Assembly: GCA_040756415.1 (NCBI GenBank)
Contig: JBFLYZ010000008.1
Span: forward strand, 13,793-77,792
DNA length: 64,000 bases
Origin: Bacteroidota bacterium
GTDB lineage: Bacteria > Bacteroidota > Bacteroidia > JADZBD01
Direction: 5' to 3'
In this document: positions 26,791 to 51,192 of the stretch, one piece after another
Numbering within the stretch: the first letter of the stretch is position 1
Layout of the letters: each line of letters opens with the position of its first letter
The notes under the pieces: generated by a model
Database searches by the model: none
Seen by the model: only the letters and a program-made list of their open reading frames with translations
Told to the model about the DNA's origin: nothing
Made by a program: the position numbers and the translations under genes

Positions 26791-29124
26791 ATGCGTACGA
26801 CCCTTATATTCCTTTTTTTTGCCTTTGCCTGCACCGCATTTTCACAGAACACCGTGGTGATCGGACGCGTTACCGATGCTCAGGGCGAAGGGATATCCGG
26901 AGCGCTGGTGAAGCCGGACAGCGGGCAGGCCGCGATCACTGACCTCCAGGGCGGATATGAGCTGAAGCTCTGGCCGGGGAAATACATCGTTACCATTTCT
27001 TCGCTGGGGTATAAGCCCGCGAGCTTTCCTCTTACGGTGGGGGATTCAACACCTGTCCTTATGAAGGTGATACGCCTTGAAGAAGAGGTGACCGAGATCG
27101 GCACCGTAGTGGTCACGGCCGGCAAGTTCGAGCAGAAGATAGAGGAGGTGACCATCAGCATGGAAGTGATCAAGCCCAGGCTGGTGGAGAGCAAGAACAC
27201 GATGAACATGGAGCACCTGGTCGACCAGGTGCCCGGTGTAAGCATGATGGACGGGCAGATCAACATACGCTGCGGCAGCGGGTTCAGCTATGGCGCTGGC
27301 AGCCGGGTGCTTTTGCTGGTTGACGATCTGCCCATGCTCAGCGCTGACGCGGGCGATGTAAAATGGAATTTCATCGCCATCGAGAACATCGAGCAGATCG
27401 AAGTGATCAAGGGGGCCTCTTCCGCGCTCTTCGGATCGTCCGCGCTGAATGGGGTAGTGAACGTGCGCACGGCTTACCCGCGCGATGAGCCCCAGACCAC
27501 TATCAATATCTCATCGGGCATGTACGGCAAGCCCGGGAGAAAAGATCTGGCCTGGTGGGACAAGCGCAATCCCGTTTTCACCAATGCCAGCCTGCTGCAT
27601 TCACGCAAGATCGGCAACCTCGACCTGGTGGTAGGCGGTAACGTGTTCTCGGATGAAGGGTACCGTTTTTTGGAAAAAGAGCAGCGCTACCGATTCAACT
27701 ACAACCTGCGCTACCGCTCCAGGAAGATCGAAGGGCTTTCTTTCGGGGTGAACGGTAATTACATGAAGGTGGAGGGCGGCCTGTTCATCCTCTGGCATAA
27801 TGCGGATTCGGCATATTACCCGCAGGGGCTCACGATTCAGAACTACAGCAACAGCCGTGTGACCATCGATCCCTTCGTGACGTATTTTGACGGCAAAGGC
27901 AACCGCCATTCGCTTCGTACGCGTTATTACCAGACCAGGAACACGAACGATACCCAGCAGGAATCCACGGCCGACCTTTATTACGGGGAGTACCAGTATC
28001 AAAAACGATTTGAAAAGGAGCTTACGCTTACCTCGGGGCTGGCCTTCACGTATTCGGAAGTGAGCAGCGATTCGCTTTATGGCGATCATTTCAGTTCCAA
28101 CCTGGGTATTTTCGTGCAGGCGGATAAGAAGTGGAAAAAGTTCACTTTTTCTTTTGGCGGCCGCGCGGAGTACTTCAAGGTGGATACAGCGGAAACGCGG
28201 TTCAATATACCGCTGGGGAAGGATACATTGCAGTCGCCACTCTACCCGGTCTTCCGCACAGGGGTGAACTACCAGTTGCTGAAATACACCTTCCTTCGGG
28301 CCTCTTTCGGGCAGGGCTACCGTTTTCCGGCCATTGCGGAGAAGTACATTAAAACGAAAGTAAGCGGCCTCACCATCCTTCCCAACCCATCCGTACAGCC
28401 GGAGACCGGATGGAGCACGGAGCTGGGCCTCAAGCAGGCCGTTAAAATAAAAGAATGGAAGGGCTACATCGATGTGTCGGCCTTCTGGATGGAGTACCGC
28501 AACATGATCGAGTTCAACTTCGATTATTATTTTCCTGAGTGGCTCACCAATCCCACCTTTGTGGATTACCTGGTCTATTTCGGGGCCAAGTCCATCAACC
28601 TGGGCCGCACGCGTATCACCGGGGCCGAGCTTACCGTAGCCGGATCGGGAAAGATAGGGCCGGTGGAGATGAACATACTGGCCGGCTATACTTACACCAA
28701 GCCCATTAACCTGAACCGCGACAGCGCTTATGTGGAAACCGGCACAGACGATTCGACCGGCATATTGAAATACCGCTACCGGCACAATACCAAGTTCGAT
28801 GTGGAGTTCGGGTATAAAAAGGTGTCGCTGGGCTTCAGCCTTCGCTATAACAGCTTTATGGAGAACATCGACAAGCGTTTCGTGGAAACGCTCATGTACG
28901 ACCAGAACACTTATCCTTTATATATACTGCCCGGCCTGAAGGACTACCGCAGGGAGCATAATAAGGGCGACCTGGTCATGGACGGGCGTATGGCCGTGCA
29001 GGTGAGCAAGGAGGCCAGGCTCTCGCTGATCTGCAACAATCTGCTCAATGCCGAATATTCCAGCCGCCCGGGCGATGTGCAGCCCCCGCGTAATTTCTCC
29101 TTACAGGTGCTGGTGAAGTTCTAG
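26791..29124 (+). CDS. TonB-dependent outer-membrane receptor with N-terminal carboxypeptidase-regulatory-like domain
   Basis: Signal peptide. CarbopepD-reg-like beta-sandwich. Plug (…VVVTAGKFEQKIEEVTISMEVI…). C-terminal beta-barrel ending in an aromatic residue (…LQVLVKF). Confidence 0.85.
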   Translation: MRTTLIFLFFAFACTAFSQNTVVIGRVTDAQGEGISGALVKPDSGQAAITDLQGGYELKLWPGKYIVTISSLGYKPASFPLTVGDSTPVLMKVIRLEEEVTEIGTVVVTAGKFEQKIEEVTISMEVIKPRLVESKNTMNMEHLVDQVPGVSMMDGQINIRCGSGFSYGAGSRVLLLVDDLPMLSADAGDVKWNFIAIENIEQIEVIKGASSALFGSSALNGVVNVRTAYPRDEPQTTINISSGMYGKPGRKDLAWWDKRNPVFTNASLLHSRKIGNLDLVVGGNVFSDEGYRFLEKEQRYRFNYNLRYRSRKIEGLSFGVNGNYMKVEGGLFILWHNADSAYYPQGLTIQNYSNSRVTIDPFVTYFDGKGNRHSLRTRYYQTRNTNDTQQESTADLYYGEYQYQKRFEKELTLTSGLAFTYSEVSSDSLYGDHFSSNLGIFVQADKKWKKFTFSFGGRAEYFKVDTAETRFNIPLGKDTLQSPLYPVFRTGVNYQLLKYTFLRASFGQGYRFPAIAEKYIKTKVSGLTILPNPSVQPETGWSTELGLKQAVKIKEWKGYIDVSAFWMEYRNMIEFNFDYYFPEWLTNPTFVDYLVYFGAKSINLGRTRITGAELTVAGSGKIGPVEMNILAGYTYTKPINLNRDSAYVETGTDDSTGILKYRYRHNTKFDVEFGYKKVSLGFSLRYNSFMENIDKRFVETLMYDQNTYPLYILPGLKDYRREHNKGDLVMDGRMAVQVSKEARLSLICNNLLNAEYSSRPGDVQPPRNFSLQVLVKF

Positions 29125-29147
29125 CTTCTCTGTAAGGGAAATGCTTT

Positions 29148-30152
29148 CTAATTCGTTTCAACTGCTGAATAAAATTCCACGATCTCCTCAAAGGTCTGCA
29201 GGATCTCTTCTTTGGAATCGCTCAGCACGAGCCTGCTCCTGAAATTTCTGAAATCAGGCAGCCCCCGGAAATAGTTGGCATAATGCGTGCGCGTTTCGAT
29301 GATGCCCAGGCGCTCGCCCTTCCATTCCATAGCCTTTTGCAGGTGGGTGCGGCAGGTGTTTACGCGGTCTTCAACGCTGGGCTGGGGCAGGTGAGCGCCA
29401 TGCTGCATGAAGTGTTTGATCTGTTCGAATATCCAGGGGTTGCCGATGGATGCGCGGCCTATCATCACCCCATCCACGCCATAGCGGGCCTTCATCTCTA
29501 AAGCCTTTTCAGGCGTGTTCACGTCACCGTTGCCGAAAACGGGGATCTTCATGCGCGGGTTGTTCTTAATTTCACCGATCAGCGTCCAGTCGGCCGGGCC
29601 TTTGTACATCTGCGAACGGGTGCGGCCGTGCACGGAGATGGCCTGTATGCCTATATCCTGCAGCCGTTCCGCCACCTCCACCACATTCTTCGTTTTATCG
29701 TCCCATCCCAGGCGGGTCTTCACCGTAACCGGCAGCTTCACCGCGTTCACCACTTCTTTGGTCATAGCCACCATCTTGGGGATGTCCTGAAGCAGGGCCG
29801 CCCCCGCTCCTCTGCAGGCTACGGCTTTCACCGGGCAGCCGTAATTAATGTCGATCAGGTCGGGTCCGGCCTTTTCGGAAATGAGGGCCGCCTCGCGCAT
29901 GCTGTCCACATTGCCGCCAAACAGTTGAATGCCGATGGGCCGCTCGTAGTCGAACACATCCAGCTTCTTCATGCTCTTGGCCGCATCGCGGATAAGCCCT
30001 TCGGAAGAAATGAACTCGGTATACATCAGGTCGGCTCCCTTCTGCTTGCACACAAAACGGAAGGGCGGATCGCTCACGTCCTCCATGGGAGCGAGTAATA
30101 AAGGGAATTCTCCCAATTCTATTTTTCCTATTCTGACCATTCCTCCGTGCAC
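29148..30152 (-). CDS. dusB: tRNA-dihydrouridine synthase
   Basis: Dus-family TIM barrel (…LLAPMEDVSDPPFR…, …DINYGCPV…, …VSVHGRTR…). Confidence 0.85.
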   Translation of the reverse strand: MHGGMVRIGKIELGEFPLLLAPMEDVSDPPFRFVCKQKGADLMYTEFISSEGLIRDAAKSMKKLDVFDYERPIGIQLFGGNVDSMREAALISEKAGPDLIDINYGCPVKAVACRGAGAALLQDIPKMVAMTKEVVNAVKLPVTVKTRLGWDDKTKNVVEVAERLQDIGIQAISVHGRTRSQMYKGPADWTLIGEIKNNPRMKIPVFGNGDVNTPEKALEMKARYGVDGVMIGRASIGNPWIFEQIKHFMQHGAHLPQPSVEDRVNTCRTHLQKAMEWKGERLGIIETRTHYANYFRGLPDFRNFRSRLVLSDSKEEILQTFEEIVEFYSAVETN

Positions 30153-30187
30153 CCTCCGTGTTCTCTATGCCCTCCGCGGTAAATTTT

Positions 30188-30267
30188 TTACTACAGACTA
30201 CACACCCGCCTGCCGTCAGGCGGGGAGGTACATAGAGAAGTTCTTTTTTATCTTTACAAAGATAATC
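30188..30267. promoter_or_regulatory. Divergent promoter region for dusB and the CPBP gene: CTACAGACTACACAC element, perfect 8-bp inverted repeat, and palindromic -7 box
   Basis: CTACAGACTACACAC at 30191-30205. Hairpin CCCGCCTG-ccgt-CAGGCGGG at 30205-30224. TATCTTT-AC-AAAGATA at 30247-30262, which reads as a TATCTTTG/TATCTTTA box on both strands. Confidence 0.5.
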
Positions 30268-30279
30268 AATCAGCTCCGA

Positions 30280-31167
30280 ATGGTCCGCGACCTCCACCCC
30301 TGGCTTAAAGTGATCATATTGGTCGGCTACCTGGCCGGGCTGGGCCTGCTTACCATCATGGGCTCGGATGCGGAGCTGAACATGGCCTTCACGCCCGGCT
30401 ACATTCTTGTGCTCAAGATATTGCAGGTGATTGGCGTGGTTCTTCTCTTCATTATGCCTTCCCTGCTTTTTTCTTACCTGTTCACCGCGCATAAGCTGAA
30501 ATACCCGCAGTTTCATGTGCCGCCCCGGCTCAGCCAGTTCATACTGGGCGCCATCGCTTTTCTGGCCGCATTGCCTTTCATTGCCTGGATGGATGAGCTG
30601 AACAAGAGCATGACGCTGCCCGAAGCGTTGGCAGGCGTAGAAGGCTGGATGCGCAAAAGCGAGGAATCGCTCAAGCAGGTAACCGAAGCCTTCCTGGCCG
30701 ACACATCGGCAGGCGGCATGATACTTAACCTCTTCGTGATCGCTTTTATGGCTGCCGTCAGCGAGGAGCTCTTTTTCCGGGGCGTATTGCAGAAGGCTTT
30801 TACGGAAGCCACCCGCAACATTCATATAGCCGTATGGGTCTCGGCCATACTTTTCAGCGCCTTTCACATGCAGTTCTTCGGTTTCTTCCCCCGCATGATC
30901 ATGGGTGTGGCCCTGGGCTATCTCTTCGCCTGGAGCGGCTCGCTCTGGGTGCCTGTATTCGCGCACTTCGTGAATAATGGCACTGCCGTGGTCTTATCCT
31001 GGATGGTGAACAATAAGATGATAGCCGAGGACCCCTCCGTGCTGGCCGATGGGGAGAGCGGGTTTTTGCCGGGGATGGCCAGCCTGGCGGTAACGATAGC
31101 ATTGATGTTGCTGGTCTACAAGCTTCGCCCCCAACCAGCCGATATTGACGTTGGGACTAAGTTGTAA
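30280..31167 (+). CDS. CPBP-family intramembrane metalloprotease (CAAX protease-like)
   Basis: ORF 29971..31167. Start taken at MVRDLHPWLK (30280), after a TATCTTTA box. Motifs EELFFRG, FSAFHMQF and AHFVNN are present, corresponding to CPBP motifs 1-3. Confidence 0.8.
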   Translation: MVRDLHPWLKVIILVGYLAGLGLLTIMGSDAELNMAFTPGYILVLKILQVIGVVLLFIMPSLLFSYLFTAHKLKYPQFHVPPRLSQFILGAIAFLAALPFIAWMDELNKSMTLPEALAGVEGWMRKSEESLKQVTEAFLADTSAGGMILNLFVIAFMAAVSEELFFRGVLQKAFTEATRNIHIAVWVSAILFSAFHMQFFGFFPRMIMGVALGYLFAWSGSLWVPVFAHFVNNGTAVVLSWMVNNKMIAEDPSVLADGESGFLPGMASLAVTIALMLLVYKLRPQPADIDVGTKL

Positions 31168-31281
31168 TGGCATGGGCTTACCTGCCTGCTCACAGCCAAA
31201 TTCGTTTTGGCTTCCCAAGAACCTCCAATTTTGACTTGGCGGCCAGGTCTTTTTTTCCGAGGATAGTTAAGATGAGGCGAT

Positions 31282-32601
31282 TCAGCGTTTCGTTAGCCTG
31301 TCGAGGCTGCGCTGTATGTATTTCTCCGTGGGCAGCAGGGATTGCTGTATCCGCCTGGCGTAATGTATGCTGTCGGTAATGGCCTCGTTCTTGGCCTCTA
31401 TGATCTGCTTTTGCAGGAGGATCTCCGCATTGGCCCTCTTCTTCTGCTGTAATCCGCGGTAAATGAAAAAGGCCAGCGCCAGCATGGATAAGGCTACAAA
31501 ACTGACGGAGTAGATGACCGCTTGCTGGCGCCTGCCGCTCAGCTCCTCGATTTCCAGGTTCTTTTTCAGCAGCTCGTTCTCCTTATCCTTCTTTTCCGTG
31601 TCGAAGCGGGTCTGCATCATGGCAATGTTCTCGTTGGCGTGCAGATCGTACAGGGTGTCTTTCAGGTCGAGGGCCAGTTTGCCATACCTGCTCGCCTTTT
31701 CGTAGTCCTTAAGTCCGCGGTAACCGTTGAACAGGTAGCTGTAGCACGACAGTATCTGATCCTTATCGCCAATGTTTTGAGCGATCTCCAGCGAGCGAAG
31801 GGCGTTCTTTACCGTTTCATGGTAATTGCCCAGGATATCAAATGTGTTGGCGATATTACCCAAACACAGGGCCATGCCGGAGCTGTCAGCAAGCTCTACA
31901 GCCACCGCCAGCGCTTCCCGGTAATGGGCCAGGGCCTTGTCAAACTGCTTCAGCTCAAAATAAGCGCTGCCTACATTATTGATCATATTCACCAGGTGCG
32001 GTTTCTCTCCCGTTTGCCGGTACAGCGCAAGGGCCGACTGGTAATGTTCCAGCGCTTTCTCATAATCGCCTTCACCGTAATACACTCCCGCCAGGTTGTT
32101 CAGGTCTGCCGAGAGCATGTGCTGGCTGCCCAGCTTCTCCGACATGGCCATGGATTGCAGGTAGTACTTTTTAGCCAGGGGATAATTTCTCAGCTCCCTG
32201 TAAATCATGCCAAGACGGGCGCAAACCGAGCTGATGCGTTTAGGATCGCCCACCTTTTCATGAAAGGAGTAGGATTTCAGGTAATTCTCAAGCGCCATAT
32301 CCTTCTGGAACCTTTCCTCGTAATACTTTCCCAGGTGATAATAGGTCCTTCCGGAAAGCAGATCATCAGGTGACTTATCCAGCACCGCCAGGGCTTCCTG
32401 CAAATATTCCAGAAGGGAATCCGGGATCATACCTGTTTTGTCGATCTCCGCGGCCAGGTCGTTCAGGGTTTTGATCCTGTCTTTGCCATTTGCCTGGCTC
32501 AAGGCAGCCGAAAGGGAATCGATGCGGGGGCTGTTTTGGGCAAAGCAGGTCAGGGAGAATGCCGAGAAGGCGAGAATAAGCAGGTGTGTGAAGGGCTTCA
32601 T
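31282..32601 (-). CDS. TPR-repeat protein with signal peptide, single TM helix and short tail. This is a truncated paralog of the TPR/SpoIIE phosphatase at 47698..49851 and lacks the PP2C domain.
   Basis: Signal peptide and about 8 TPR repeats. TM AVIYSVSFVALSMLALAFFIY. The tail …ITDSIHYARRIQQSLLP… aligns with …ITDSIRYAKRIQDAILP… of the full-length paralog, but the ORF stops 20 aa later, 115 nt before the neighbouring gene. Confidence 0.7.
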   Translation of the reverse strand: MKPFTHLLILAFSAFSLTCFAQNSPRIDSLSAALSQANGKDRIKTLNDLAAEIDKTGMIPDSLLEYLQEALAVLDKSPDDLLSGRTYYHLGKYYEERFQKDMALENYLKSYSFHEKVGDPKRISSVCARLGMIYRELRNYPLAKKYYLQSMAMSEKLGSQHMLSADLNNLAGVYYGEGDYEKALEHYQSALALYRQTGEKPHLVNMINNVGSAYFELKQFDKALAHYREALAVAVELADSSGMALCLGNIANTFDILGNYHETVKNALRSLEIAQNIGDKDQILSCYSYLFNGYRGLKDYEKASRYGKLALDLKDTLYDLHANENIAMMQTRFDTEKKDKENELLKKNLEIEELSGRRQQAVIYSVSFVALSMLALAFFIYRGLQQKKRANAEILLQKQIIEAKNEAITDSIHYARRIQQSLLPTEKYIQRSLDRLTKR

Positions 32602-32709
32602 ACGCGTGACAATAACCGCAAATTAAACAATATATCCTGTAGATGCTGGCGAAATTGACCGGAAGTTTTGTTGTGGTAGCGGTAACAAAAAAGATCGTGA
32701 AGCAGCAGG

Positions 32710-33822
32710 CTATTGCTGCAGCAGATCCATCCCGCAAACCTTGCATTTGCCCGGGCCATCGCTGCCTCCCCCGGGGCATTTCATGGGGCATTGCCAGGCT
32801 TCTCCCGGTACCGGATCGCAATCCGGGTTCTTTTTGCTGAAGAAGCGGTAGGAAAGACCAAAAACGTATTGAGTCCTGGTGGCTATCTGCGCGCCATTTA
32901 CATATTCATAGACGGGGACCTCGGTCAGCGCGAAAATGGTCAATGCGTTACGGCTGAAGCTGAGCTGGGGCGAAAAGCTGATCCTCTTGCTGCCGGTGGA
33001 GGCGGTATCCACATTATAAAAGGCCTGAAGGTCCATGTTCTCGGCCGCCTTCATCTTGCCCGTTTGCTCGGCCCTGAGCTGCAGGGTGAGCCCTAAGCTG
33101 CCAAAGCTCCTGCTGCCGAACAGGCTGAGCGCGCCATAGTCGCCAAATTTCTCCCCTAAAGGATTCCATCCCTTTCGTATGTACATCAGGCTGCTGAACA
33201 GCTTCAGCTTGTGCTTGGGGAAACCCCTCAGAAAGAAAGCGTAGGCGATCAGGTCCTGCGAGCCCGTGGTGGGCTGCACGATGGGCGGAGAAATGGTGTA
33301 GTACTGCTGCCCGCTGTTGGGATCAGTATAGACCAGGGTGGAGTCCTTGTATTTTCCCAGCGGGATCTTGTATCCCAGGCCCAGCGTCAGCTCCACCTGC
33401 CGGGATGAATCGCTGCGGGTAAAGACGTTATAACGCGGGAAAATAATAAGGTCTGCGATACCGGAAGATTCGATCACATCCGAGCGGAGCAACACCGAAT
33501 CGTACAGGCCTACCTGTGTTTTGTTCAGGTAGTAGCCCATCTCGACCGATAAGGTAAAATTCTTCGTAATGCCGTATCCCAGCCTGGAGTAAATATAATT
33601 GCTCTTGAAATGATCGAAGAGCTGCGCGGTATCGCGATCCTGTACCTTAAAACGGTCGCTGCGCAGGTATTGAAGGCTGGAGGCCAGCTCCATCTGCCCG
33701 GCCGGCAGAACGCCTTGCGAAGCCCCTCCGGTGATCGGGCTTCCGCTGCCGCCCGAGCAGCAGCCTTGCCCGCGGACCTGGGCGGCCGCTATCAGCGCAA
33801 GCAGGAAAAAGAAGGCGCGCAT
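32710..33822 (-). CDS. Outer-membrane beta-barrel protein with C-terminal heavy-metal-binding domain
   Basis: Signal peptide MRAFFFLLALIAAAQVRGQ. CC motif near the mature N-terminus. Alternating hydrophobic beta-strands. C-terminal CPMKCPGGGSDGPGKCKVCGMDL resembles the HMBD/YHYH-type motif found at the N-termini of CusB/CzcB proteins. Confidence 0.65.
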   Translation of the reverse strand: MRAFFFLLALIAAAQVRGQGCCSGGSGSPITGGASQGVLPAGQMELASSLQYLRSDRFKVQDRDTAQLFDHFKSNYIYSRLGYGITKNFTLSVEMGYYLNKTQVGLYDSVLLRSDVIESSGIADLIIFPRYNVFTRSDSSRQVELTLGLGYKIPLGKYKDSTLVYTDPNSGQQYYTISPPIVQPTTGSQDLIAYAFFLRGFPKHKLKLFSSLMYIRKGWNPLGEKFGDYGALSLFGSRSFGSLGLTLQLRAEQTGKMKAAENMDLQAFYNVDTASTGSKRISFSPQLSFSRNALTIFALTEVPVYEYVNGAQIATRTQYVFGLSYRFFSKKNPDCDPVPGEAWQCPMKCPGGGSDGPGKCKVCGMDLLQQ

Positions 33823-33829
33823 GATGCGA

Positions 33830-34600
33830 TCAGCGCGATACGGTGAGCTTAACGGTTTCCACCGCTTCGCCTGCGCGCAGCTTTATAAAATAGACACCGG
33901 GGCTGAGCGATGAAAGGTCGAGCGTATGCTCGTACTTGCCGGGCGCCTGCTCACCGATGATGGTATGGCTCACCTTTTCGCCCAGGATATTGATCAGCTC
34001 GAAGCTTACTTCAGACTGCCGGGTTAAGGTATAGCTAAGCGCGGCCACAGCGGCAGTGGCGGGATTCGGAAAAATGCCGGCTCCGGTTACGATCGCATTC
34101 GTTTCGGGGACACCCGTACAAGGGGTCAGGGCATTGTTGATGGCGGTTTGCAAAGCGTTTTGGGTAATGCTGCCGTTCACATTGAAGAATACGGTGTGGC
34201 AGGTTCCCCCTCCCAGCACTACGGTCTTGGGCATGCCGGCCGTTCCATAGTCGGTCATGTCGATGGCCGTGCTGGTGAACTTGGCCGTAGCGTTGATGCC
34301 GTTGGTGCTGGCCCAGCTGTTCAGCGAGGCGCAATTCGTATTACCGTAATCATCCACCAGGTAGAACACCACGTTGGGATTACCCATGCCGTTGACGGTG
34401 TTAGCGGCAGTTAGGGAGGGCGCAATGCAGGCCCCGCAGGGCATGACCCAGGTAATGACCACCACCTTGCCGGCATCCAGCTCGCTGAAGAGGGTATGCG
34501 GGTTGCCCGTACAGTCGTTCACGGTCCAGTTCGTTGCGGTTTGGGCGCTGAAATGGCCCGCAGCGGCAACAGTACACAAAAGGAGCAATATCTTTTTCAT
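33830..34600 (-). CDS. T9SS-secreted thioredoxin-fold (TlpA-like) protein
   Basis: Signal peptide. GKVVVITWVMPCGACI resembles a CxxC thioredoxin active site. C-terminal T9SS CTD (…GIFPNPATAAV…GVYFIKLRAGE…). Confidence 0.6.
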   Translation of the reverse strand: MKKILLLLCTVAAAGHFSAQTATNWTVNDCTGNPHTLFSELDAGKVVVITWVMPCGACIAPSLTAANTVNGMGNPNVVFYLVDDYGNTNCASLNSWASTNGINATAKFTSTAIDMTDYGTAGMPKTVVLGGGTCHTVFFNVNGSITQNALQTAINNALTPCTGVPETNAIVTGAGIFPNPATAAVAALSYTLTRQSEVSFELINILGEKVSHTIIGEQAPGKYEHTLDLSSLSPGVYFIKLRAGEAVETVKLTVSR

Positions 34601-34964: not shown

Positions 34965-35357
34965 ATGCGTATCTTCAATATCGTTTTCGCATTGCTGTTT
35001 GTCATTTTCGCGGCCCTTCAGTACAACGATCCCGATCCCTGGCTGTGGATGCCCGTCTACCTGTATGGCGCCCTGCTCTGCTGGCTGGGTTTTAAAGGAA
35101 AATACTATCCGTTTCTGCTCTGGCCGGGACTGGGCGTATACACCGTTTATGCCGTTTACCTCTTCCTGGGCCGGGATGGTGTATGGGCCTGGCTCACCGA
35201 GCACCAGGCGGAGGATATTGCCGCCACCATGCAGGCCGACAAGCCCTGGATCGAGGCCAGCCGCGAGTTTCTCGGGCTGATGATACTGGACATCGCGCTG
35301 CTCGCCAATGTGGCCTGGTTCGCCAGGATGAATCGGGTGCTCACAACGGAAAAGTGA
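34965..35357 (+). CDS. Small integral membrane protein (4 TM)
   Basis: 130 aa, hydrophobic, Trp-rich (…PDPWLWMPVYLYGALLCWLGF…). Its stop overlaps the next start by 1 nt (TGATG). Confidence 0.5.
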   Translation: MRIFNIVFALLFVIFAALQYNDPDPWLWMPVYLYGALLCWLGFKGKYYPFLLWPGLGVYTVYAVYLFLGRDGVWAWLTEHQAEDIAATMQADKPWIEASREFLGLMILDIALLANVAWFARMNRVLTTEK

Positions 35358-37687
35358 TGCCGGTACGCTTAACAGTCTGTTTTCTTTTCTGCCTGCATCA
35401 CATTGGCCTGGCCCAGGATGTCTACCAGGACGTAAGGGGCGTAGTGCGCGACAAGGCCGGCCTGGCGCTGACGGGCGCGCATGTTTATTTGTCGGATACC
35501 TCGGTAAGTGAAGTTGTCACGGATGAAAAAGGCGGGTTCAGGTTAGCCAACATCAGCCCGGGCTGGTATGTGCTTAATGTGAAGCACGGGGGATATGAGC
35601 CGGTGGCCATTCCCATTGTAGTGGAAGCGGGAAAGGAGCTGGTAATGGAGATCGGTCTCAGCGAAAGCCCTTTCGAGCTGCAGGAGATACAGGTAAGCGG
35701 CCAAAGCCTGCCGCAGATCGGGGCTCACCGTTTTACCGTTGAGGAAACAGAACGTTATGCGGCTACTTTTTATGATCCGGCCAGGTTAGTAAGTTCCCTC
35801 CCGGGCGTCATTGGCGATAACGACCAGGCGAACAATATCGTAATACGCGGTAATTCGCCTAACGGCCTGCTCTGGAGGCTGGAAGGCGCGGATATACTTA
35901 ATCCCAACCACCTGGAGAACGCGGGCACTTTCAGCGACCGCGCCACGCAGAACGGGGGCGGGGTGAACATACTCAGCGCGCAACTGCTCGGCAATTCAGC
36001 CTTCATTAAGGGAGGATACGGTGCCGGATACGGCAACCTGGTCTCAGGGGTCTTTGATATGAAACTGAGAAAAGGGAATAACGAGCGCTTTGAGCTCACC
36101 GGCCAGCTCAGCCTGCTGGGCACAGAGCTCGCCTCAGAGGGCCCGCTCGGTAAAAAGGGCTCTTCCTACCTGGTCAACTACCGTTATTCCACGATCGGCC
36201 TGCTTTCGCTCATGGGCGTGGATTTCGGAAATGAAAAGACCAGCTTCCAGGATGTTTCCTTCCATCTTTCTTTTCCCGGCCGGAGGGGAGAGCTCAGCGT
36301 ATTCGGTTTTGCGGGGCTGAGCGATACCCGCCTCGAGCCGCAGCGCGATCCGGCTTTGTGGGAGCTGGGCCGTGATAAGTATGAAACGGATTTCAGCTCG
36401 GCCACCTCGGTAATGGGACTGCGCTCGCATCTTACCGTCAGCAACCGAATGCTGCTCAAATCCTCGGCCGCTTTCTCATACAAGGAAACCGGCCGCAGGG
36501 CATTTTTCCTGGATACCGCTTTGGTGAGCCGCCTGATGCAGGAAGACGCCAGCCGGCTGCAGAAATTGGCCGTACATAACAGCCTCTCCTTTTTTATCAA
36601 TGCCCGGCATACCCTTACCGCAGGCCACCACTCGGCCCTGCTGTTCTTCGATGTGTATTTTGCTGATGGCGCGGAAAAGAGGCCCCTGCAGGTGGTGGTG
36701 AACGCTGCGGGCGATCAACTGCTGGTGCAACCGTACGTGGAATGGAAGATGGCCCTGGGCCGCAGGATAACATGGGTTGCCGGGCTGCACGGTATGCTGA
36801 CAGAAAATGAGAATAGATGGGAACCCCGCCTGGCGGCTGCTTTAGATCTTGGCCGGCAGCACAGGCTTTCGCTGGCCTTTGACCAGACCAGTCAGGTTCA
36901 GCCACTGCACATCAGCTATGTTACGGTGCCAGGGGCTGATGGAACCGGGACCTACCCGAACCGATCGTTGGGCTTAAGCAAATACACGCACTATTCAGCA
37001 GCCTTCAGCGGTATGCTTTCCCAATACGGCTACCGGATCGAGGCGTATTACCAGCAATTGCGGGGCATACCGGTTTCAACGAATGCCGGCACCACTTTTT
37101 CCGCTCTCAATTCGCTCGAACAGATCATTCATGATTCACTGGTGAACGGGGGCAGTGGCAGAAACTACGGGGTGGAGCTGAGCCTGGAGAAGCCCCTGCC
37201 GGGCGAATATTATTTTCTGTTCAGCAGCGCGCTTTACCGCTCGCTGTACACGGCCGCTGACGGGCTGGAGCGCAGTTCGCGCTATGACGGTAAATACGCG
37301 CTCAGCCTCACCTGCGGCAGAGAGGCCGTTCGCAGCGGAAACCGTTCGTTCGGCATTCACGCCAGGATATTGTATCGCGGAGGATACCTCGAAACACCGA
37401 TCGATGAGGCTTTGTCGGCCCGGAACGGAGAAACGGTATATATGGACGAATGGCCCTTTACCCGGAAACTGGATGATTATTTCAGGGTGGACCTGCGCAT
37501 AAGCAGCAAAAAAGAAAAGCCCTCCTATACCCGTATCGTGGCCATAGATATCCAGAACCTGACGAACAGGAAGAATATTGCGTATCGCTATTACGATACG
37601 GTGACCGGCCGTATAGAAACAAAGTATCAGCTAGGATTGATACCCGTGCTAAGCCTGCGAATCGAATTTTCCGCAGCAAAAAAATGA
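35357..37687 (+). CDS. TonB-dependent receptor-like outer-membrane protein with carboxypeptidase-regulatory-like N-domain
   Basis: ORF 35183..37687. Start taken at MPVRLTVCFLFCLHHIGLAQ (35357). CarbopepD-reg-like domain (VRGVVRDKAGLALTGAHVYL…GGFRL). Plug-like segment. Beta-barrel ending …LRIEFSAAKK. Confidence 0.7.
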   Translation: MPVRLTVCFLFCLHHIGLAQDVYQDVRGVVRDKAGLALTGAHVYLSDTSVSEVVTDEKGGFRLANISPGWYVLNVKHGGYEPVAIPIVVEAGKELVMEIGLSESPFELQEIQVSGQSLPQIGAHRFTVEETERYAATFYDPARLVSSLPGVIGDNDQANNIVIRGNSPNGLLWRLEGADILNPNHLENAGTFSDRATQNGGGVNILSAQLLGNSAFIKGGYGAGYGNLVSGVFDMKLRKGNNERFELTGQLSLLGTELASEGPLGKKGSSYLVNYRYSTIGLLSLMGVDFGNEKTSFQDVSFHLSFPGRRGELSVFGFAGLSDTRLEPQRDPALWELGRDKYETDFSSATSVMGLRSHLTVSNRMLLKSSAAFSYKETGRRAFFLDTALVSRLMQEDASRLQKLAVHNSLSFFINARHTLTAGHHSALLFFDVYFADGAEKRPLQVVVNAAGDQLLVQPYVEWKMALGRRITWVAGLHGMLTENENRWEPRLAAALDLGRQHRLSLAFDQTSQVQPLHISYVTVPGADGTGTYPNRSLGLSKYTHYSAAFSGMLSQYGYRIEAYYQQLRGIPVSTNAGTTFSALNSLEQIIHDSLVNGGSGRNYGVELSLEKPLPGEYYFLFSSALYRSLYTAADGLERSSRYDGKYALSLTCGREAVRSGNRSFGIHARILYRGGYLETPIDEALSARNGETVYMDEWPFTRKLDDYFRVDLRISSKKEKPSYTRIVAIDIQNLTNRKNIAYRYYDTVTGRIETKYQLGLIPVLSLRIEFSAAKK

Positions 37688-47697: not shown

Positions 47698-49851
47698 TCA
47701 GAATCGCGCCCCCATCACGCATACGTCATCGATCTGTTCCAGCCTGCCTTTCCAGCTTTCGAATGTTGCTTCCAGGCTCTGCTTTTGCTCGCGAAGCGGC
47801 AGAGCGGCAATGGAAGCCAGGCTTTCGCGGAGCCGCCTGCTCTTGAACTTTTTACCGTCCTCTCCACCGAATTGATCGGCATAACCGTCAGAAAAGACAT
47901 ATACGCAATCGCCAGGCTTGAGCTGCACCTCGCGGTGCGAGAAGAGCTTCAGCTCTCCTTCCGTGAAATGGCCAACAGGCTGCTTATCGCCTTGTATTTC
48001 CAGCACTTCCCTGCTTTCTTTCCCAACGATCCAGACGGGATTATAAGCTCCGGCAAACTCCAGCAGCAGGGTTTTCCTGTCAATAGCGCACAGGGCGATG
48101 TCCATGCCGTCACGAACTTTCGCGTCAGGGCGCTGTTTCAGTATACGGGAGAGTTTCTTGTTCATGGCATTCAGGATCAGTGCGGGCCGGTCTATGCCCT
48201 GCTCCAGAAGGGCTTCGTTCAGCAGGTTATGGGCCACTATGCTCATGAATGCGCCCGGCACCCCGTGGCCGGTACAATCTACAGCAGCGAAAAAAACCTT
48301 ATTGCCCCATTGCTCCACCCAATACAGGTCACCGCTTACAATGTCTTTTGGCTTATACAACACAAAACAATCGGGCAGCAGGGCGCGTATGCTCTCTTCC
48401 GAAGGCAGGATGGCGTCCTGGATTCGTTTGGCGTAGCGAATGCTGTCAGTGATATCCTTGTTCTTTTCATCTACGATCAGTTTTTGTTTTTCAATGATGG
48501 CCTTCTGGCGTTGCGTAATGCGGAATCGCTTGAAAAGCAGAAAAGAGAAGCCCGACAGCAGGCATAATCCCCCAATGACCGAATAGATGACCAGTTTTTG
48601 TTTTTCTGATTCGGCCCGATGGGCCAGGTCTTTTTTTTCCTGCGCAGCTCTTGCCTCGGCCTCTTTCATTTCGTATTCATGCCTGATCTGCTGCCTGATT
48701 GCCGATTTGCGGCTCTGTTCATTGCTCATGCTGTCGCGCATCAGTATATACAGATCGTACATTTCTAGGGCCTGTTTGTGTTTTCCCCATCCAGTATAGA
48801 TGTTCTTAAGCGTTTCGGCCGCATTCCGTATCCACTCGGGGTTCTTCACCTCGCGCGCCACCTTCAGGCCTTTCAGGCTGTAGCTTTCGCCAAGTGCATA
48901 ACGGCCCAATTTCCCGTAACAACTGCCGATGTTGTTCAGCATAATGGCGATAAAGCTCTTTTCCCTGACCGCCTCGGCCAGCTCATACGCTTTCCTGTAA
49001 TATTCGAGCGCCTTCTCCACCGAATCCTGGAGGCTATACACATTACCCATGTTGTTCCATACCTGCGCGATGCCCCGCTTGTTGCCCGTTTCCTCGTGCA
49101 GCTTCATGCATTGGGTGTAAAGATCGAGCGCATCACTGTATTTTTTTTGCTTTTTATAAATAGTCGCAATGTTGTTCAGCGCGGTAGCCATGTTTCTTTT
49201 GTTCTTCTGTCGTGCGCTGATCTCCAGGTGCTGGCGATAATTCATGAGGGCCTGGTCCAGTTCGCCATTGTTTTCGAGGATGATACCGATGTTGTTGAGC
49301 GTATTGGCGATGCCGGCCGAGTCGTTCAACTGACGCTTTATCTCCAGGCTCTTTTCGTAATGGTTCAGCGCCTCGGTCACGTTTCCCAGCAGCTTATAGG
49401 CGTATCCCATATTGTTAAAGGTGCGGGCCACCTGCTTCAGGTCATTTATGGCCATGCTCAGTTCGAGGCTTTGTTTGTACAAAGGGATGCTGTTCTTGCT
49501 GTCGCCTTTATAGTCAAGCATGGCACCCAGGTTGTTGAGCGCCTGCGCTCTTTCGCGGAAGCAGAATGTTTTCAGCGCGCCTGTAGCCCCGGCAAGGTAC
49601 TTATCCGTGAGCTGCACCACCAGCGAACACAACTGTAATGCGCTGTCGACCTCAGAACTGTAAATTTCCTCGCACAGGTCGTTGTAGGCTTTGATCAGCA
49701 CGGTATCGTGTCCTGCGTCAGCAATGACCCCGGCCAGCGAATCGGCCTTTGTCCCGGCCCATAACCACCAGGAAGAGCAGAGCAGAAGAATCGGGATGAG
49801 TGCAATGGGCCTGTTCACGGCCCAAATATAGTCAGGCCGGCAAATAAACAA
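47698..49851 (-). CDS. TPR-repeat / SpoIIE (PP2C-family) serine phosphatase, RsbU-like architecture
   Basis: N-terminal signal/TM. About 9 TPR repeats. TM. Coiled coil. PP2C/SpoIIE domain (…VSGDLYWVEQ…FFAAVDCTGHGVPGAFMS…). Confidence 0.8.
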   Translation of the reverse strand: MFICRPDYIWAVNRPIALIPILLLCSSWWLWAGTKADSLAGVIADAGHDTVLIKAYNDLCEEIYSSEVDSALQLCSLVVQLTDKYLAGATGALKTFCFRERAQALNNLGAMLDYKGDSKNSIPLYKQSLELSMAINDLKQVARTFNNMGYAYKLLGNVTEALNHYEKSLEIKRQLNDSAGIANTLNNIGIILENNGELDQALMNYRQHLEISARQKNKRNMATALNNIATIYKKQKKYSDALDLYTQCMKLHEETGNKRGIAQVWNNMGNVYSLQDSVEKALEYYRKAYELAEAVREKSFIAIMLNNIGSCYGKLGRYALGESYSLKGLKVAREVKNPEWIRNAAETLKNIYTGWGKHKQALEMYDLYILMRDSMSNEQSRKSAIRQQIRHEYEMKEAEARAAQEKKDLAHRAESEKQKLVIYSVIGGLCLLSGFSFLLFKRFRITQRQKAIIEKQKLIVDEKNKDITDSIRYAKRIQDAILPSEESIRALLPDCFVLYKPKDIVSGDLYWVEQWGNKVFFAAVDCTGHGVPGAFMSIVAHNLLNEALLEQGIDRPALILNAMNKKLSRILKQRPDAKVRDGMDIALCAIDRKTLLLEFAGAYNPVWIVGKESREVLEIQGDKQPVGHFTEGELKLFSHREVQLKPGDCVYVFSDGYADQFGGEDGKKFKSRRLRESLASIAALPLREQKQSLEATFESWKGRLEQIDDVCVMGARF

Positions 49852-49866: not shown

Positions 49867-51192
49867 TTAGTCGAGCTTAAGAAACCGTGCCGGGACGCAC
49901 TTGCCCTCTGCATCGTAAACGCGCAGAAGGTAATACCCTTCAGCCAGCGGGCCGATATCGGCTTGCGTGTCTGGAGTACGGAGCAGTATCTTGCCGGTGA
50001 GGTCGGCAATCTCGATGCGGGCAATGCCGAAATCTGCCCTTACGGTCAGTTGATCGCTGGCCGGCACCGGATATATGCTGATCGTTCCGGGCGCACCGTA
50101 CAGCTCATTCGTGCCGGCCATGCTTGTAAATCCATAAAAGGTCTTCATGTACGAGTTCGAAAAATTATTCTGGTTCCTGAAGCCTACCACGGCATTGGCG
50201 TTATTGGGCACGGTATCGGTATAGAAATAAAAGTGAAAGACCTGCGTATCCAATGGCGCTATGGCGATAGTCACCGTATCGGTAGAGGTGCTGTAGCATA
50301 CGCTGGCGCACATGGAGCTGGCCCATCCGGGCGCCATGTTGTTCTGCAGGCGGCCCAGCTTAACGAGCACCGTGCCGGTAGCGCTGGTGTTGATGAGCTC
50401 CGCATCCACGGCAAGGGTGGCCCCGGGCTGACCGAACGCGGTATCCGAGGAGGTCATATTCAGGATGAACGAGCCATTGTAGTTGGGCGGATTGCAGTTG
50501 CCCGGAAGGCCGAGCAGCGAATCGATATCGCAGATGATGTTATCGGGGTAGCTGTCGTACCATCCGTGCTTGGAGAAGACGATGCCGCTGGTGTCGATCA
50601 GGTAGGCGTTGTTGGGCGCTGGCCCGTAATACAGCCACCAGTTGTTGCAGGGGCCATCTATGTAAACCGGGGCCTGCAGCGCGGTGTTGTTTTGCAGGTC
50701 GTTCACCACCTGCTTGCGCTGGCCGTAGGTGGCGGGCTGCTGGTACAGGATGCCGGCCGATTGGTTCGCTGACGTAATATTTACATAACCGAAATAGGGG
50801 CTGGTGTCGGTAGGGTGCGCTTCAACACAATAGATCACGGCTACCGTTACCTGCGATCCGTACGTATTAATCACATTATTGATCGAGCTGATCTTATTGC
50901 GGAACACGGGGCAGGTATAGCTTCCAGATACAAGCAATACCGGCTTGCCCTGCGACAGGGCATTGCCCAGGTTGAAGGCGTTCCCGCTATAGTCGTAGAG
51001 CGTAAAATCGGCAGCGGTATCGCCCGGCTGCAACCCGCTGCTGTAAAAGCTGCCCAGGTACCATGGAATGGGGCAGATGGAGGTGGAGTCGGCCGGCAGG
51101 CTGCCTATGCCTATGCTGGGCAGGAGGACCTGCGCGGTAAGGGGGAAAGGGGCGGTAGCCAGAAAAAAAAGCGGCAGTAGAATCCTGTTCAT
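49867..51192 (-). CDS. T9SS-secreted protein with putative thioredoxin-like N-domain
   Basis: Signal peptide. GKPVLLVSGSYTCPVF… resembles a thioredoxin-fold beta-strand plus Cys. C-terminal T9SS CTD (…ISIYPVPASDQLTVR…GYYLLRVYDAEGK…). Confidence 0.65.
   Translation of the reverse strand: MNRILLPLFFLATAPFPLTAQVLLPSIGIGSLPADSTSICPIPWYLGSFYSSGLQPGDTAADFTLYDYSGNAFNLGNALSQGKPVLLVSGSYTCPVFRNKISSINNVINTYGSQVTVAVIYCVEAHPTDTSPYFGYVNITSANQSAGILYQQPATYGQRKQVVNDLQNNTALQAPVYIDGPCNNWWLYYGPAPNNAYLIDTSGIVFSKHGWYDSYPDNIICDIDSLLGLPGNCNPPNYNGSFILNMTSSDTAFGQPGATLAVDAELINTSATGTVLVKLGRLQNNMAPGWASSMCASVCYSTSTDTVTIAIAPLDTQVFHFYFYTDTVPNNANAVVGFRNQNNFSNSYMKTFYGFTSMAGTNELYGAPGTISIYPVPASDQLTVRADFGIARIEIADLTGKILLRTPDTQADIGPLAEGYYLLRVYDAEGKCVPARFLKLD

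What the first reader, a model, noticed from the sequence alone, without database searches (positions are those of the whole stretch)
31168..32601. Truncated paralog of the TPR/SpoIIE phosphatase: sensor half retained, PP2C half missing
The protein at 31282..32601 has the same signal peptide, TPR block, TM and coiled-coil architecture as the full-length TPR/SpoIIE phosphatase at 47698..49851. It even has the same juxtamembrane motif (ITDSIHYARRIQQSLLP versus ITDSIRYAKRIQDAILP). It terminates exactly where the PP2C domain should begin, and only 115 nt separate it from the convergent CPBP gene. A T7 homopolymer (31243-31249) lies just past the stop. It is either a 3'-deleted pseudogene remnant or a naturally 'headless' decoy or sensor paralog that could compete for the same signal or partner.
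Basis: partly seen in the sequence, partly recalled or inferred. Interest (0 to 1): 0.5.

Follow-up and report, generated by a model that had tools for sequence, protein, structure and literature searches.

The report
Conserved phosphatase-less TPR membrane receptor
The "truncated" gene is not a broken copy of the TPR/PP2C sensor phosphatase. It is an intact member of a large, unnamed Bacteroidota family that naturally ends just before the phosphatase domain and keeps the phosphatase's regulatory linker helix as its most conserved part.

Summary
ORF 31282-32601(-) encodes 439 aa with signal peptide, TPR solenoid, stalk helix, one TM and a 58-aa cytoplasmic tail. It aligns with the 717-aa TPR/SpoIIE paralog (47698-49851) at 27% identity (E 1e-40) and stops where PP2C strand beta1 would begin.

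The pseudogene reading is refuted.
- About 150 homologs in Bacteroidota end 26-36 aa (mode 30; window 30) after the motif DSIxYAxRIQ, with the tail LLPxEKYIxKxLxRLxK*.
- Long forms carry 240-294 aa there.
- The only invariant residues apart from D315 lie in this tail.
- Short genes form same-strand, stop/start-abutting arrays of 2-5, and sometimes fuse into double-module proteins.
- No PP2C remnant lies downstream.
- A second assembly (98.6% identical) has the same TGA stop and 7 synonymous versus 2 non-synonymous differences.
- NCBI annotates the gene as intact (MEW6467980.1).
- The T7 run is at 31250-31256, not 31243-31249, and is the tail of a terminator-like hairpin for the CPBP gene.

The function is inferred, not shown. 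I read it as a non-catalytic receptor subunit or pseudo-receptor whose conserved PPM-type linker dimerises or docks a partner. No conserved neighbouring gene exists, and no short/long co-evolution signal was found. The lead is moderately interesting: a new variant of a known kind.

The parts
31282..32601 (-). Short-form TPR receptor gene (439 aa plus TGA). It equals NCBI MEW6467980.1, 'tetratricopeptide repeat protein', from a Bacteroidota MAG.
   Evidence: GC3 0.70, like neighbouring genes
32539..32601 (-). Signal peptide, residues 1-21 (MKPFTHLLILAFSAFSLTCFA). It is followed by the family's DSL motif.
   Evidence: sequence
31714..32529 (-). Periplasmic TPR solenoid, residues 25-296 (TPR_12/TPR_1 type, LGN/KLC-like).
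   Evidence: Pfam; AF2 pLDDT above 90; PDB profile hits are generic TPR only; partial match to the FimS sensor part, NF053520
31522..31704 (-). Periplasmic stalk helix, residues 300-360 (coiled-coil-like, ...MQTRFDTEKKDKENELLKK...). It is continuous with the TM helix.
   Evidence: AF2 single helix 300-422
31459..31521 (-). Transmembrane helix, residues 361-381 (AVIYSVSFVALSMLALAFFIY). Basic residues follow it (RGLQQKKR), so the C-terminus is cytoplasmic.
   Evidence: hydropathy maximum
31330..31374 (-). PPM-type linker motif DSIHYARRIQQSLLP, residues 410-424. It holds six of the seven invariant residues of the family (S411 I412 Y414 A415 I418 Q419).
31285..31329 (-). Short-form-specific C-terminal tail TEKYIQRSLDRLTKR, residues 425-439. 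It forms a basic amphipathic helix after an LPT kink. Family consensus: P.EKYI.K.L.RL.K.
31282..31284 (-). TGA stop codon, identical in an independent related assembly (L082). The next in-frame stop is 4 codons later.
31168..31281 (.). 114-nt convergent intergenic spacer. No PP2C-like coding remnant in any frame.
   Evidence: tblastn with 7 PP2C domains gave noise only
31233..31256 (+). Hairpin GACTTGGCGGCCAGGTC plus T7 run (31250-31256). It is an intrinsic-terminator-like site for the + strand CPBP gene.
30280..31167 (+). Convergent CPBP/Rce1-like intramembrane protease gene (295 aa, MEW6467979.1). It is not a conserved neighbour of the family.
32619..32626 (-). TTAATTTG, one mismatch from the Bacteroidota -7 promoter element TAnnTTTG (consensus from my own knowledge). 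It ends 17 nt upstream of the ATG, in the 108-nt spacer after the HMBD gene. Promoter-like only.
   Evidence: sequence; the sigma-70 scan found none
47698..49851 (-). Long-form relative in the same window: TPR-TM-linker-PP2C (SpoIIE) phosphatase, 717 aa. Motif at 48418-48447, PP2C at 47704-48303. It is the only other family member in the 64 kb.

Best explanation
The gene is an intact, selected member of a large Bacteroidota family of single-pass membrane proteins. These descend from TPR-TM-PP2C sensor phosphatases but naturally lack the catalytic domain.

Shown:
- The architecture is signal peptide, periplasmic TPR solenoid, a long stalk helix that continues through one TM, and a 58-aa cytoplasmic tail.
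- The tail is the PPM-type linker (DSIxYAxRIQxxLLP) followed by a family-specific basic amphipathic helix (EKYIxKxLxRLxK) and a stop.
- This tail is the best-conserved part of the family.
- Short forms multiply as already short genes in co-oriented, stop/start-abutting arrays.
- Short forms sometimes fuse into two-module proteins.

Inferred mechanism:
- The TPR domain binds a periplasmic peptide or protein ligand, as proposed for the homologous FimS sensor.
- In long forms the linker helices cross to dimerise and switch on the PP2C domains (Bradshaw model for RsbU-type PPMs).
- The short form keeps exactly this dimerising or docking element without a catalytic domain.
- It therefore most likely acts as a non-catalytic receptor subunit. 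It would pair through TM and linker with other short forms and/or with long-form phosphatases, or bind the same cytoplasmic partner, and so tune PP2C signalling rather than catalyse anything.

Confidence is about 0.9 that it is an intact member of a natural short family, and about 0.3 for the pseudo-receptor mechanism. The figure given blends the two.
For: Two discrete classes exist. Short forms have 26-36 aa after the motif start (mode 30; window 30). Long forms have 240-294 aa.

Counts:
- 100 short and 36 long genes in 80 GTDB loci across Flavobacteriales, Sphingobacteriaceae, Chitinophaga, Vicingus and Microscillaceae.
- 6,329 50%-identity cluster representatives match the C-terminal 112 aa at E<=1e-3.
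- Of the 140 newly returned hits among the 150 listed, 88 are full short forms, 17 short fragments, 7 double short modules and 24 long forms.

Invariant columns of the short-family alignment: S411 I412 Y414 A415 I418 Q419, plus D315. EKYI is more conserved in short forms than the matching stretch in long forms.

Genomic arrangement:
- 29 of 42 adjacent short-short pairs are spaced -16 to +11 nt on one strand.
- 27 of 64 loci with a short form have at least two.
- Short neighbours are 62% identical in TM plus linker, against 39% for unlinked short pairs.

Local evidence:
- No PP2C remnant.
- Same stop in the related assembly L082, with 7 synonymous and 2 non-synonymous differences.
- Annotated intact by NCBI.
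- AF2 pLDDT 90.9, helix 300-422 plus helix 426-438.

Literature: crossing linker helices N-terminal to PPM domains control dimerisation and activity, and E. coli RssB is a PPM-derived non-phosphatase adaptor (PMC12143880). The FimS periplasmic TPR sensor is described in PMC11053733, and the window protein matches the FimS sensor part of NF053520.
Against: - No experiment or expression data exist for any member.
- No conserved non-family neighbour gene was found. The best cluster occurs in 8 of 80 loci.
- Short-long pairs in one locus are no more alike in TM plus linker than unlinked pairs (0.30 vs 0.32, p=0.9). There is therefore no co-evolution signal for heterodimers.
- Some MAGs hold at least 10 short forms while few or no long forms appeared in the sampled loci. 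This fits a 1:1 decoy poorly.
- The NJ tree does not make short forms monophyletic: 25 state changes versus about 65 for shuffled labels. Repeated loss, or exchange of sensor modules, cannot be excluded.
- The related assembly L082 carries a 1-nt frameshifting insertion inside the gene. If real, the gene is dispensable in that strain.
Confidence: 0.7

Rival explanations
1. It is a stand-alone periplasmic TPR scaffold or receptor whose function lies entirely outside the cytoplasm. The TM and tail only anchor, orient and dimerise it, with no connection to PP2C signalling.
For: No conserved cytoplasmic partner gene lies nearby. There is no short/long co-variation. Short forms outnumber long forms and form their own arrays and fusions. 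Recurrent neighbours in about 10% of loci are envelope proteins: T9SS CHU_C cargo and a PD40 protein. The terminal helix is basic and amphipathic, compatible with lying on the inner leaflet.
Against: A mere anchor or zipper would not keep S-I-x-Y-A-x-x-I-Q invariant across proteins that are otherwise about 30% identical. It would also not keep the very motif that is invariant in the PP2C-bearing forms. Relatives with HK, cyclase or AraC outputs lack this motif.
Confidence: 0.25
2. It is a 3'-deleted pseudogene remnant of a full-length TPR/PP2C phosphatase.
For: Its best HMMER hits include long forms. It has the long-form-like 'KN..IT' signature before the motif. The related contig L082 has a frameshift.
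Against: The end point and tail sequence are those of about 150 independent short homologs. The nearest long form is only 37% identical. No PP2C remnant exists. GC3 is normal. Differences from the sister strain are 7 synonymous and 2 non-synonymous. NCBI annotates it as intact.
Confidence: 0.03
3. A sequencing or assembly error, or recoding (frameshift at the homopolymer, TGA read-through), hides a longer ORF.
For: A T7/A7 run lies nearby, and its length differs between the two assemblies.
Against: The run lies 26 nt after the stop codon. All three frames downstream hit stops quickly and then run antisense into the CPBP gene. Only 114 nt are available for a PP2C domain of about 230 aa. The stop is identical in an independent assembly.
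Confidence: 0.01
4. It is one half of a split system. The short form is the sensor half, and a separately encoded soluble PP2C domain docks on the conserved linker in trans.
For: The linker is conserved as strongly as in fused forms. [quoted passage not shown]
Against: No stand-alone PP2C gene is a conserved neighbour. The window holds none apart from the long form. The short-form tail replaces strand beta1 with a different, conserved helix rather than ending at a clean domain boundary.
Confidence: 0.06

Closest known systems
Bacteroidota TPR-TM-PP2C sensor phosphatases (SpoIIE/RsbU/SiaA-type PPM, PF07228), e.g. window 47698-49851
   Same: Signal peptide, DSL motif, TPR_12 solenoid, stalk helix, single TM and the linker motif DSIxYAxRIQxxLP.
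   Different: The short form has no PP2C domain. It stops at the position of strand beta1 and carries a family-specific tail, EKYIxKxLxRLxK. Its residue preferences also differ: L rather than T before the motif, and S-L-L-P rather than A-I-L-P after it.
Porphyromonas gingivalis FimS sensor histidine kinase (NCBIfam NF053520)
   Same: A periplasmic multi-TPR sensor domain followed by a TM helix. The profile aligns to residues 7-388 (E 2e-25). The ligand is unknown and proposed to be a peptide (PMC11053733).
   Different: FimS has HisKA/HATPase output, while the window protein has none. The score of 89 bits is far below the 600-bit cutoff, and the linker motif is of the PPM type, not the HK type.
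RsbU-type PPM linker and E. coli RssB (PMC12143880)
   Same: An alpha-helical linker N-terminal to the PPM domain that crosses in the dimer and controls activity. RssB shows that a PPM-derived protein without phosphatase activity can survive as an adaptor.
   Different: RssB keeps most of the PPM fold, and RsbU is soluble. The short form keeps only the linker and is membrane-anchored with an extracytoplasmic sensor.
Kinase-less pseudoreceptors of eukaryotes, e.g. BAMBI or truncated TrkB.T1 (analogy from my own knowledge, not tested)
   Same: A receptor ectodomain plus TM is retained and the catalytic intracellular domain is missing. They act by pairing with full-length receptors.
   Different: They are unrelated in sequence and kingdom. 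Pairing has not been shown for the bacterial family.

Membership tests
Short-form TPR-TM-linker family (unnamed; annotated 'tetratricopeptide repeat protein') | Ends 26-36 aa after the D of DSIxYAxRIQ | tested here: met
   Window: 30 aa. Family mode: 30.
Short-form TPR-TM-linker family (unnamed; annotated 'tetratricopeptide repeat protein') | Tail consensus SLLP.EKYI.K.L.RL.K | tested here: met
   Window: SLLPTEKYIQRSLDRLTKR.
Short-form TPR-TM-linker family (unnamed; annotated 'tetratricopeptide repeat protein') | Signal peptide, TPR solenoid, stalk helix and a single TM before the motif | tested here: met
Short-form TPR-TM-linker family (unnamed; annotated 'tetratricopeptide repeat protein') | Pre-motif signature EEKQKEIL (L at position -1) | tested here: not met
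   The window has EAKNEAIT, the long-form-like variant. T at -1 occurs in 12 of 158 short forms. This is a minority state, not an exclusion.
PPM/PP2C SpoIIE-type phosphatase (PF07228) | PP2C catalytic fold with metal-binding Asp (xSGDFYW and later motifs) | tested here: not met
   No Pfam hit. The protein ends before beta1. No remnant lies downstream.
PPM/PP2C SpoIIE-type phosphatase (PF07228) | Alpha-helical linker with A..IQ..LLP N-terminal to the domain | tested here: met
FimS-type sensor histidine kinase (NF053520) | HisKA plus HATPase_c output and full-length score of at least 600 bits | tested here: not met
   89 bits, with only profile positions 7-383 of 618 matched.
3'-truncated pseudogene | Remnant of the lost domain or a disrupted frame downstream | tested here: not met
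3'-truncated pseudogene | Close full-length ortholog elsewhere, with the end point unique to this copy | tested here: not met
   The nearest long form is 37% identical. The end point is shared by about 150 homologs. The sister assembly has the same stop. Sampling of near relatives is thin: one 1.2-kb contig.
3'-truncated pseudogene | Relaxed selection | tested here: inconclusive
   7 synonymous and 2 non-synonymous differences argue for constraint, but there are only 9 differences, and L082 has a 1-nt insertion.
Non-catalytic receptor subunit pairing with long-form phosphatases | Physical short-long or short-short pairing through TM and linker | not testable with these tools
   Only monomer structure prediction is available.
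Non-catalytic receptor subunit pairing with long-form phosphatases | Co-variation of short and long TM/linker within a genome | tested here: not met
   0.30 versus 0.32 identity, p=0.9.
Non-catalytic receptor subunit pairing with long-form phosphatases | Genome-wide co-occurrence of short with long forms | not tested
   Only loci of +/-8 kb were available. 13 of 64 short-form loci also hold a long form, and the window holds both.

The most novel reading that the evidence does not exclude
Bacteroidota run a combinatorial receptor system. Arrays of catalytic-domain-less TPR 'pseudo-receptors' pair with each other and with TPR-PP2C phosphatases through the invariant TM-linker helix, and so gate linker-mediated PPM dimerisation. 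This would be a bacterial counterpart of kinase-less pseudoreceptors. It would also show that the PPM linker is an autonomous interaction module rather than a mere cis-regulatory connector.
Probability: 0.25. Interest if true: 0.65.

Novelty: new variant of a known kind. Interest (0 to 1): 0.4.

Why it matters
PP2C/SpoIIE-type phosphatases are a major but poorly understood signalling class in Bacteroidota. Recent work places their control in the helical linker before the catalytic domain.

A family of hundreds to thousands of proteins has discarded the catalytic domain yet kept this linker as its most conserved element. That is a natural experiment: it says the linker does something on its own, such as dimerisation or partner docking.

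The result also has a practical use for annotation. Such genes should not be flagged as truncated phosphatases or pseudogenes. Pfam and NCBIfam gave no family-specific match for the linker and tail, so the family could be given its own model.

Tried and rejected
- Close orthologs for a synteny test. The metagenome-contig scan gave one marginal hit. The exact protein is not in the encoding-contig index. Only the 1.2-kb contig L082 could be used.
- No self-hit. This first suggested that the genome was absent from the collection. The real cause is that the 90% cluster is represented by a 112-aa fragment.
- Conserved-neighbour search by all-against-all BLAST of ORFs in 80 loci: nothing beyond the family itself. 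Pfam on the most recurrent neighbours gave T9SS cargo, PD40, ECF sigma and LuxR regulators, each in 10% of loci or fewer.
- Partner-switch genes (STAS, RsbW-like) near either window gene: none.
- NJ tree to test a single origin of short forms: it clusters them but does not make them monophyletic, and the TPR alignment is noisy.
- Short-long co-variation: negative.
- PDB profile search: generic TPR hits only, and nothing for the tail.
- Literature searches for a description of the short family: none found.
- The T7 run as a frameshift site was rejected because it lies after the stop codon.

Full report
**1. What is in the sequence**

The ORF 31282-32601 on the minus strand encodes 439 aa.
- Pfam finds only TPR families in it.
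- The ORF 47698-49851(-), 717 aa, has the same TPR families plus a SpoIIE/PP2C domain at residues 517-716.
- BLASTP between the two gives 27% identity over 402 residues (E 1e-40).
- That alignment runs from the TPR block through the TM helix into ITDSIHYARRIQQSLLPTEKYIQ / ITDSIRYAKRIQDAILPSEESIR.

Hydropathy and an AlphaFold2 model (mean pLDDT 90.9) give this layout:
- signal peptide, residues 1-21
- TPR solenoid, residues 25-296
- one uninterrupted helix, residues 300-422, which contains the TM segment 361-381
- a kink at LPT
- a terminal helix, residues 426-438

The cytoplasmic part is therefore only 58 aa. The protein stops 30 residues after the D of the motif. In the long paralog this is the first PP2C strand (FVLYKPKDIVSGD).

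The spacer to the convergent CPBP gene is 114 nt.

It is at 31250-31256, and it follows a GC-rich hairpin at 31233-31249 on the + strand. This makes it a terminator-like site for the CPBP gene. It lies after the stop codon and is irrelevant to the ORF length.

**2. No lost domain, no error**

I ran tblastn with the PP2C domains of the long paralog and six homologs. The only PP2C found in the window is at 47701-48414, and 29000-31400 gave only noise.

All three frames after the TGA stop terminate quickly.

The protein is NCBI MEW6467980.1, annotated as an intact 'tetratricopeptide repeat protein' of a Bacteroidota MAG on an 83-kb contig.

An independent ENA assembly, L082, is 98.6% identical over 1.2 kb.
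- It has the same TGA stop, the same spacer and the same convergent CPBP gene.
- The 9 coding differences are 7 synonymous and 2 non-synonymous.
- It also has a 1-nt insertion that frameshifts the gene mid-way. I cannot tell whether this is an assembly error or a real lesion in that strain.

**3. The decisive comparison**

A search of 5.8 billion proteins gave no close relative apart from a fragment. The self-hit was hidden because a 112-aa fragment represents its cluster. The 120 best homologs fall into two discrete classes.
- In the short class the protein ends 26-36 aa after the motif [DE]S[IL]xYAxxIQ.
- In the long class it continues for 242-280 aa into SpoIIE.

A scan of one genome per GTDB species found 506 relatives. 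In the 80 loci kept I counted 100 short and 36 long genes, all closed by stop codons inside the contigs. They come from Flavobacteriales, Sphingobacteriaceae, Chitinophaga, Arcticibacter, Vicingus and Microscillaceae MAGs.

Pooled, the short tails have a mode of 30 aa, which is exactly the window's value. The consensus sequences are:
- short: ...QK.LVEEKQKEILDSIHYAKRIQ.SLLP.EKYI.K.L.RL.K-stop
- long: ...EEKNK.ITDSI.YAKRIQ.AILPS...IK..LP.SFV.FKPKDIVSGD...

In an alignment of 36 short forms that are only about 30% identical overall, the invariant columns are S411, I412, Y414, A415, I418 and Q419 of the tail, plus D315. The EKYI segment is better conserved in short forms than the equivalent segment in long forms.

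An exhaustive phmmer search of 1.84 billion representatives with the last 112 aa found 6,329 proteins at E<=1e-3 and 1,082 at E<=1e-10. I classified the 140 newly returned hits among the 150 listed:
- 88 full short forms
- 17 short fragments
- 24 long forms
- 7 proteins of 918-962 aa with two complete short modules in one chain
- 4 with no motif

**4. How the family is organised**

Short genes often sit in same-strand arrays of 2-5.
- 27 of 64 loci with a short form have at least two.
- 29 of 42 adjacent pairs are spaced -16 to +11 nt, which is operon-like with abutting stop and start.

Neighbouring short forms are 62% identical in the TM plus linker, against 39% for unlinked ones. Short-long neighbours are no more alike than unlinked short-long pairs (0.30 vs 0.32). 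So the family grows by duplication of genes that are already short, not by repeated local truncation of the phosphatase next door.

13 of 64 short-form loci also hold a long form within 8 kb, and four of the 15 adjacent short-long pairs in them are spaced 11-112 nt.

No other gene family is a conserved neighbour. The best cluster occurs in 8 of 80 loci. Neither window gene has STAS or RsbW-type partners nearby.

An NJ tree of the shared region clusters the two classes, with 25 state changes against about 65 for shuffled labels. It does not make the short forms monophyletic, and the TPR alignment is noisy.

The window protein is about equally distant (33-38% identity) from its nearest long and short relatives. 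It has the long-form-like 'KN..IT' signature just before the motif. Its tail is nevertheless a textbook short-form tail.

**5. What it most likely does**

Shown: it is an intact, conserved, catalytic-domain-less derivative of TPR-PP2C sensor phosphatases. Its best-conserved element is the cytoplasmic linker.

From the literature:
- In RsbU-type PPM phosphatases, the helical linker N-terminal to the catalytic domain crosses with its partner in the dimer.
- It packs on alpha-1 and controls activity through dimerisation.
- The same architecture is predicted for PPMs with other sensor domains.
- E. coli RssB is a PPM derivative that lost phosphatase activity and works as an adaptor (PMC12143880).
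- The TPR-TM sensor part resembles that of P. gingivalis FimS (NF053520, 89 bits, below cutoff).
- The periplasmic TPR domain of FimS is thought to bind a peptide-like signal (PMC11053733).

Inferred: the short form senses or binds something in the periplasm. In the cytoplasm it presents only the dimerising or docking linker plus a basic amphipathic helix. I therefore favour a non-catalytic receptor subunit, or pseudo-receptor, that pairs with other short forms and/or long-form phosphatases, or titrates a linker-binding partner.

I put this mechanism at about 0.3. The main rival, at about 0.25, is a purely periplasmic scaffold whose tail merely anchors and dimerises it. Against that rival stands the invariance of a motif shared only with PP2C-bearing relatives. 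Against my favoured model stand three points:
- there is no short/long co-variation;
- short forms are in excess in some MAGs;
- there is no conserved partner gene.

**6. Novelty and verdict**

Neither Pfam nor NCBIfam gave a family-specific match. Sources name these proteins only 'tetratricopeptide repeat protein'. Full-text searches found no description of them.

The window gene itself is an ordinary member of this unnamed family. The family is a new variant of a known kind: sensor PP2C phosphatases minus the phosphatase.

The pseudogene alternative is rejected. The 'headless paralog' alternative is supported as anatomy and unproven as function.

Interest is moderate (0.4). It is a clean, testable lead for people who study PPM regulation, not a surprise in itself.

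Noticed in passing
L082 position 488 (window ~31708): The related ENA assembly (98.6% identical) has a 1-nt insertion (TTAAAGG versus TTAAGG) that frameshifts the TPR gene, so the gene was called there as two overlapping ORFs. It may be an assembly error or a real inactivation in that strain.
   Followed up: partly
P0244-P0247, P0253, P0258, P0307: Proteins of 918-962 aa consist of two complete short modules. In P0244 the first tail (...EKYIMRKLEHLKK) runs directly into the next module's signal peptide. This implies a tail-TM-TPR-TM-tail topology.
   Followed up: partly
L016:20-6256: A 2078-aa ORF ends in the short-form tail (DSIHYAKRIQTALLPSEKYINKSLSQLNKKG). It lies upstream of three more short-form genes in the same array.
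   Followed up: no
L025, L047, L016, L027, L043, L064, L070: Arrays of 3-5 co-oriented short-form genes with overlapping or abutting stop and start codons. One MAG (ES-bin-35, JACMLS01) has at least 10 short forms across five loci.
   Followed up: partly
window 31375-31392 (residues 404-409, KNEAIT): The window's short protein carries the long-form signature before the motif (T at -1: 12 of 158 short forms versus 65 of 84 long forms) but a typical short-form tail. This may be a trace of exchange between the two classes.
   Followed up: partly
window 32710-33822 and 33830-34600 (-): The same-strand upstream genes are a 370-aa secreted protein that ends in a heavy-metal-binding domain (PF19335) and a T9SS-sorted protein. 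TonB-dependent receptors flank the region at 26791-29124 and 35183-37687. No link to the TPR gene was found in other genomes.
   Followed up: partly
window 49867-51192 (-): Directly upstream of the long paralog lies a T9SS-sorted protein with an iodothyronine-deiodinase-like (thioredoxin-fold) domain, PF00837.
   Followed up: no
window 29971-31167 (+): The mechanical ORF for the CPBP gene (398 aa) overlaps the DusB-like gene 29148-30152. The annotated product (MEW6467979.1) is 295 aa and starts at 30280.
   Followed up: yes
The window protein was invisible in the homology search because a 112-aa fragment (P0242) represents its 90% cluster. A missing self-hit in that tool does not mean the genome is absent from the collection.
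   Followed up: yes
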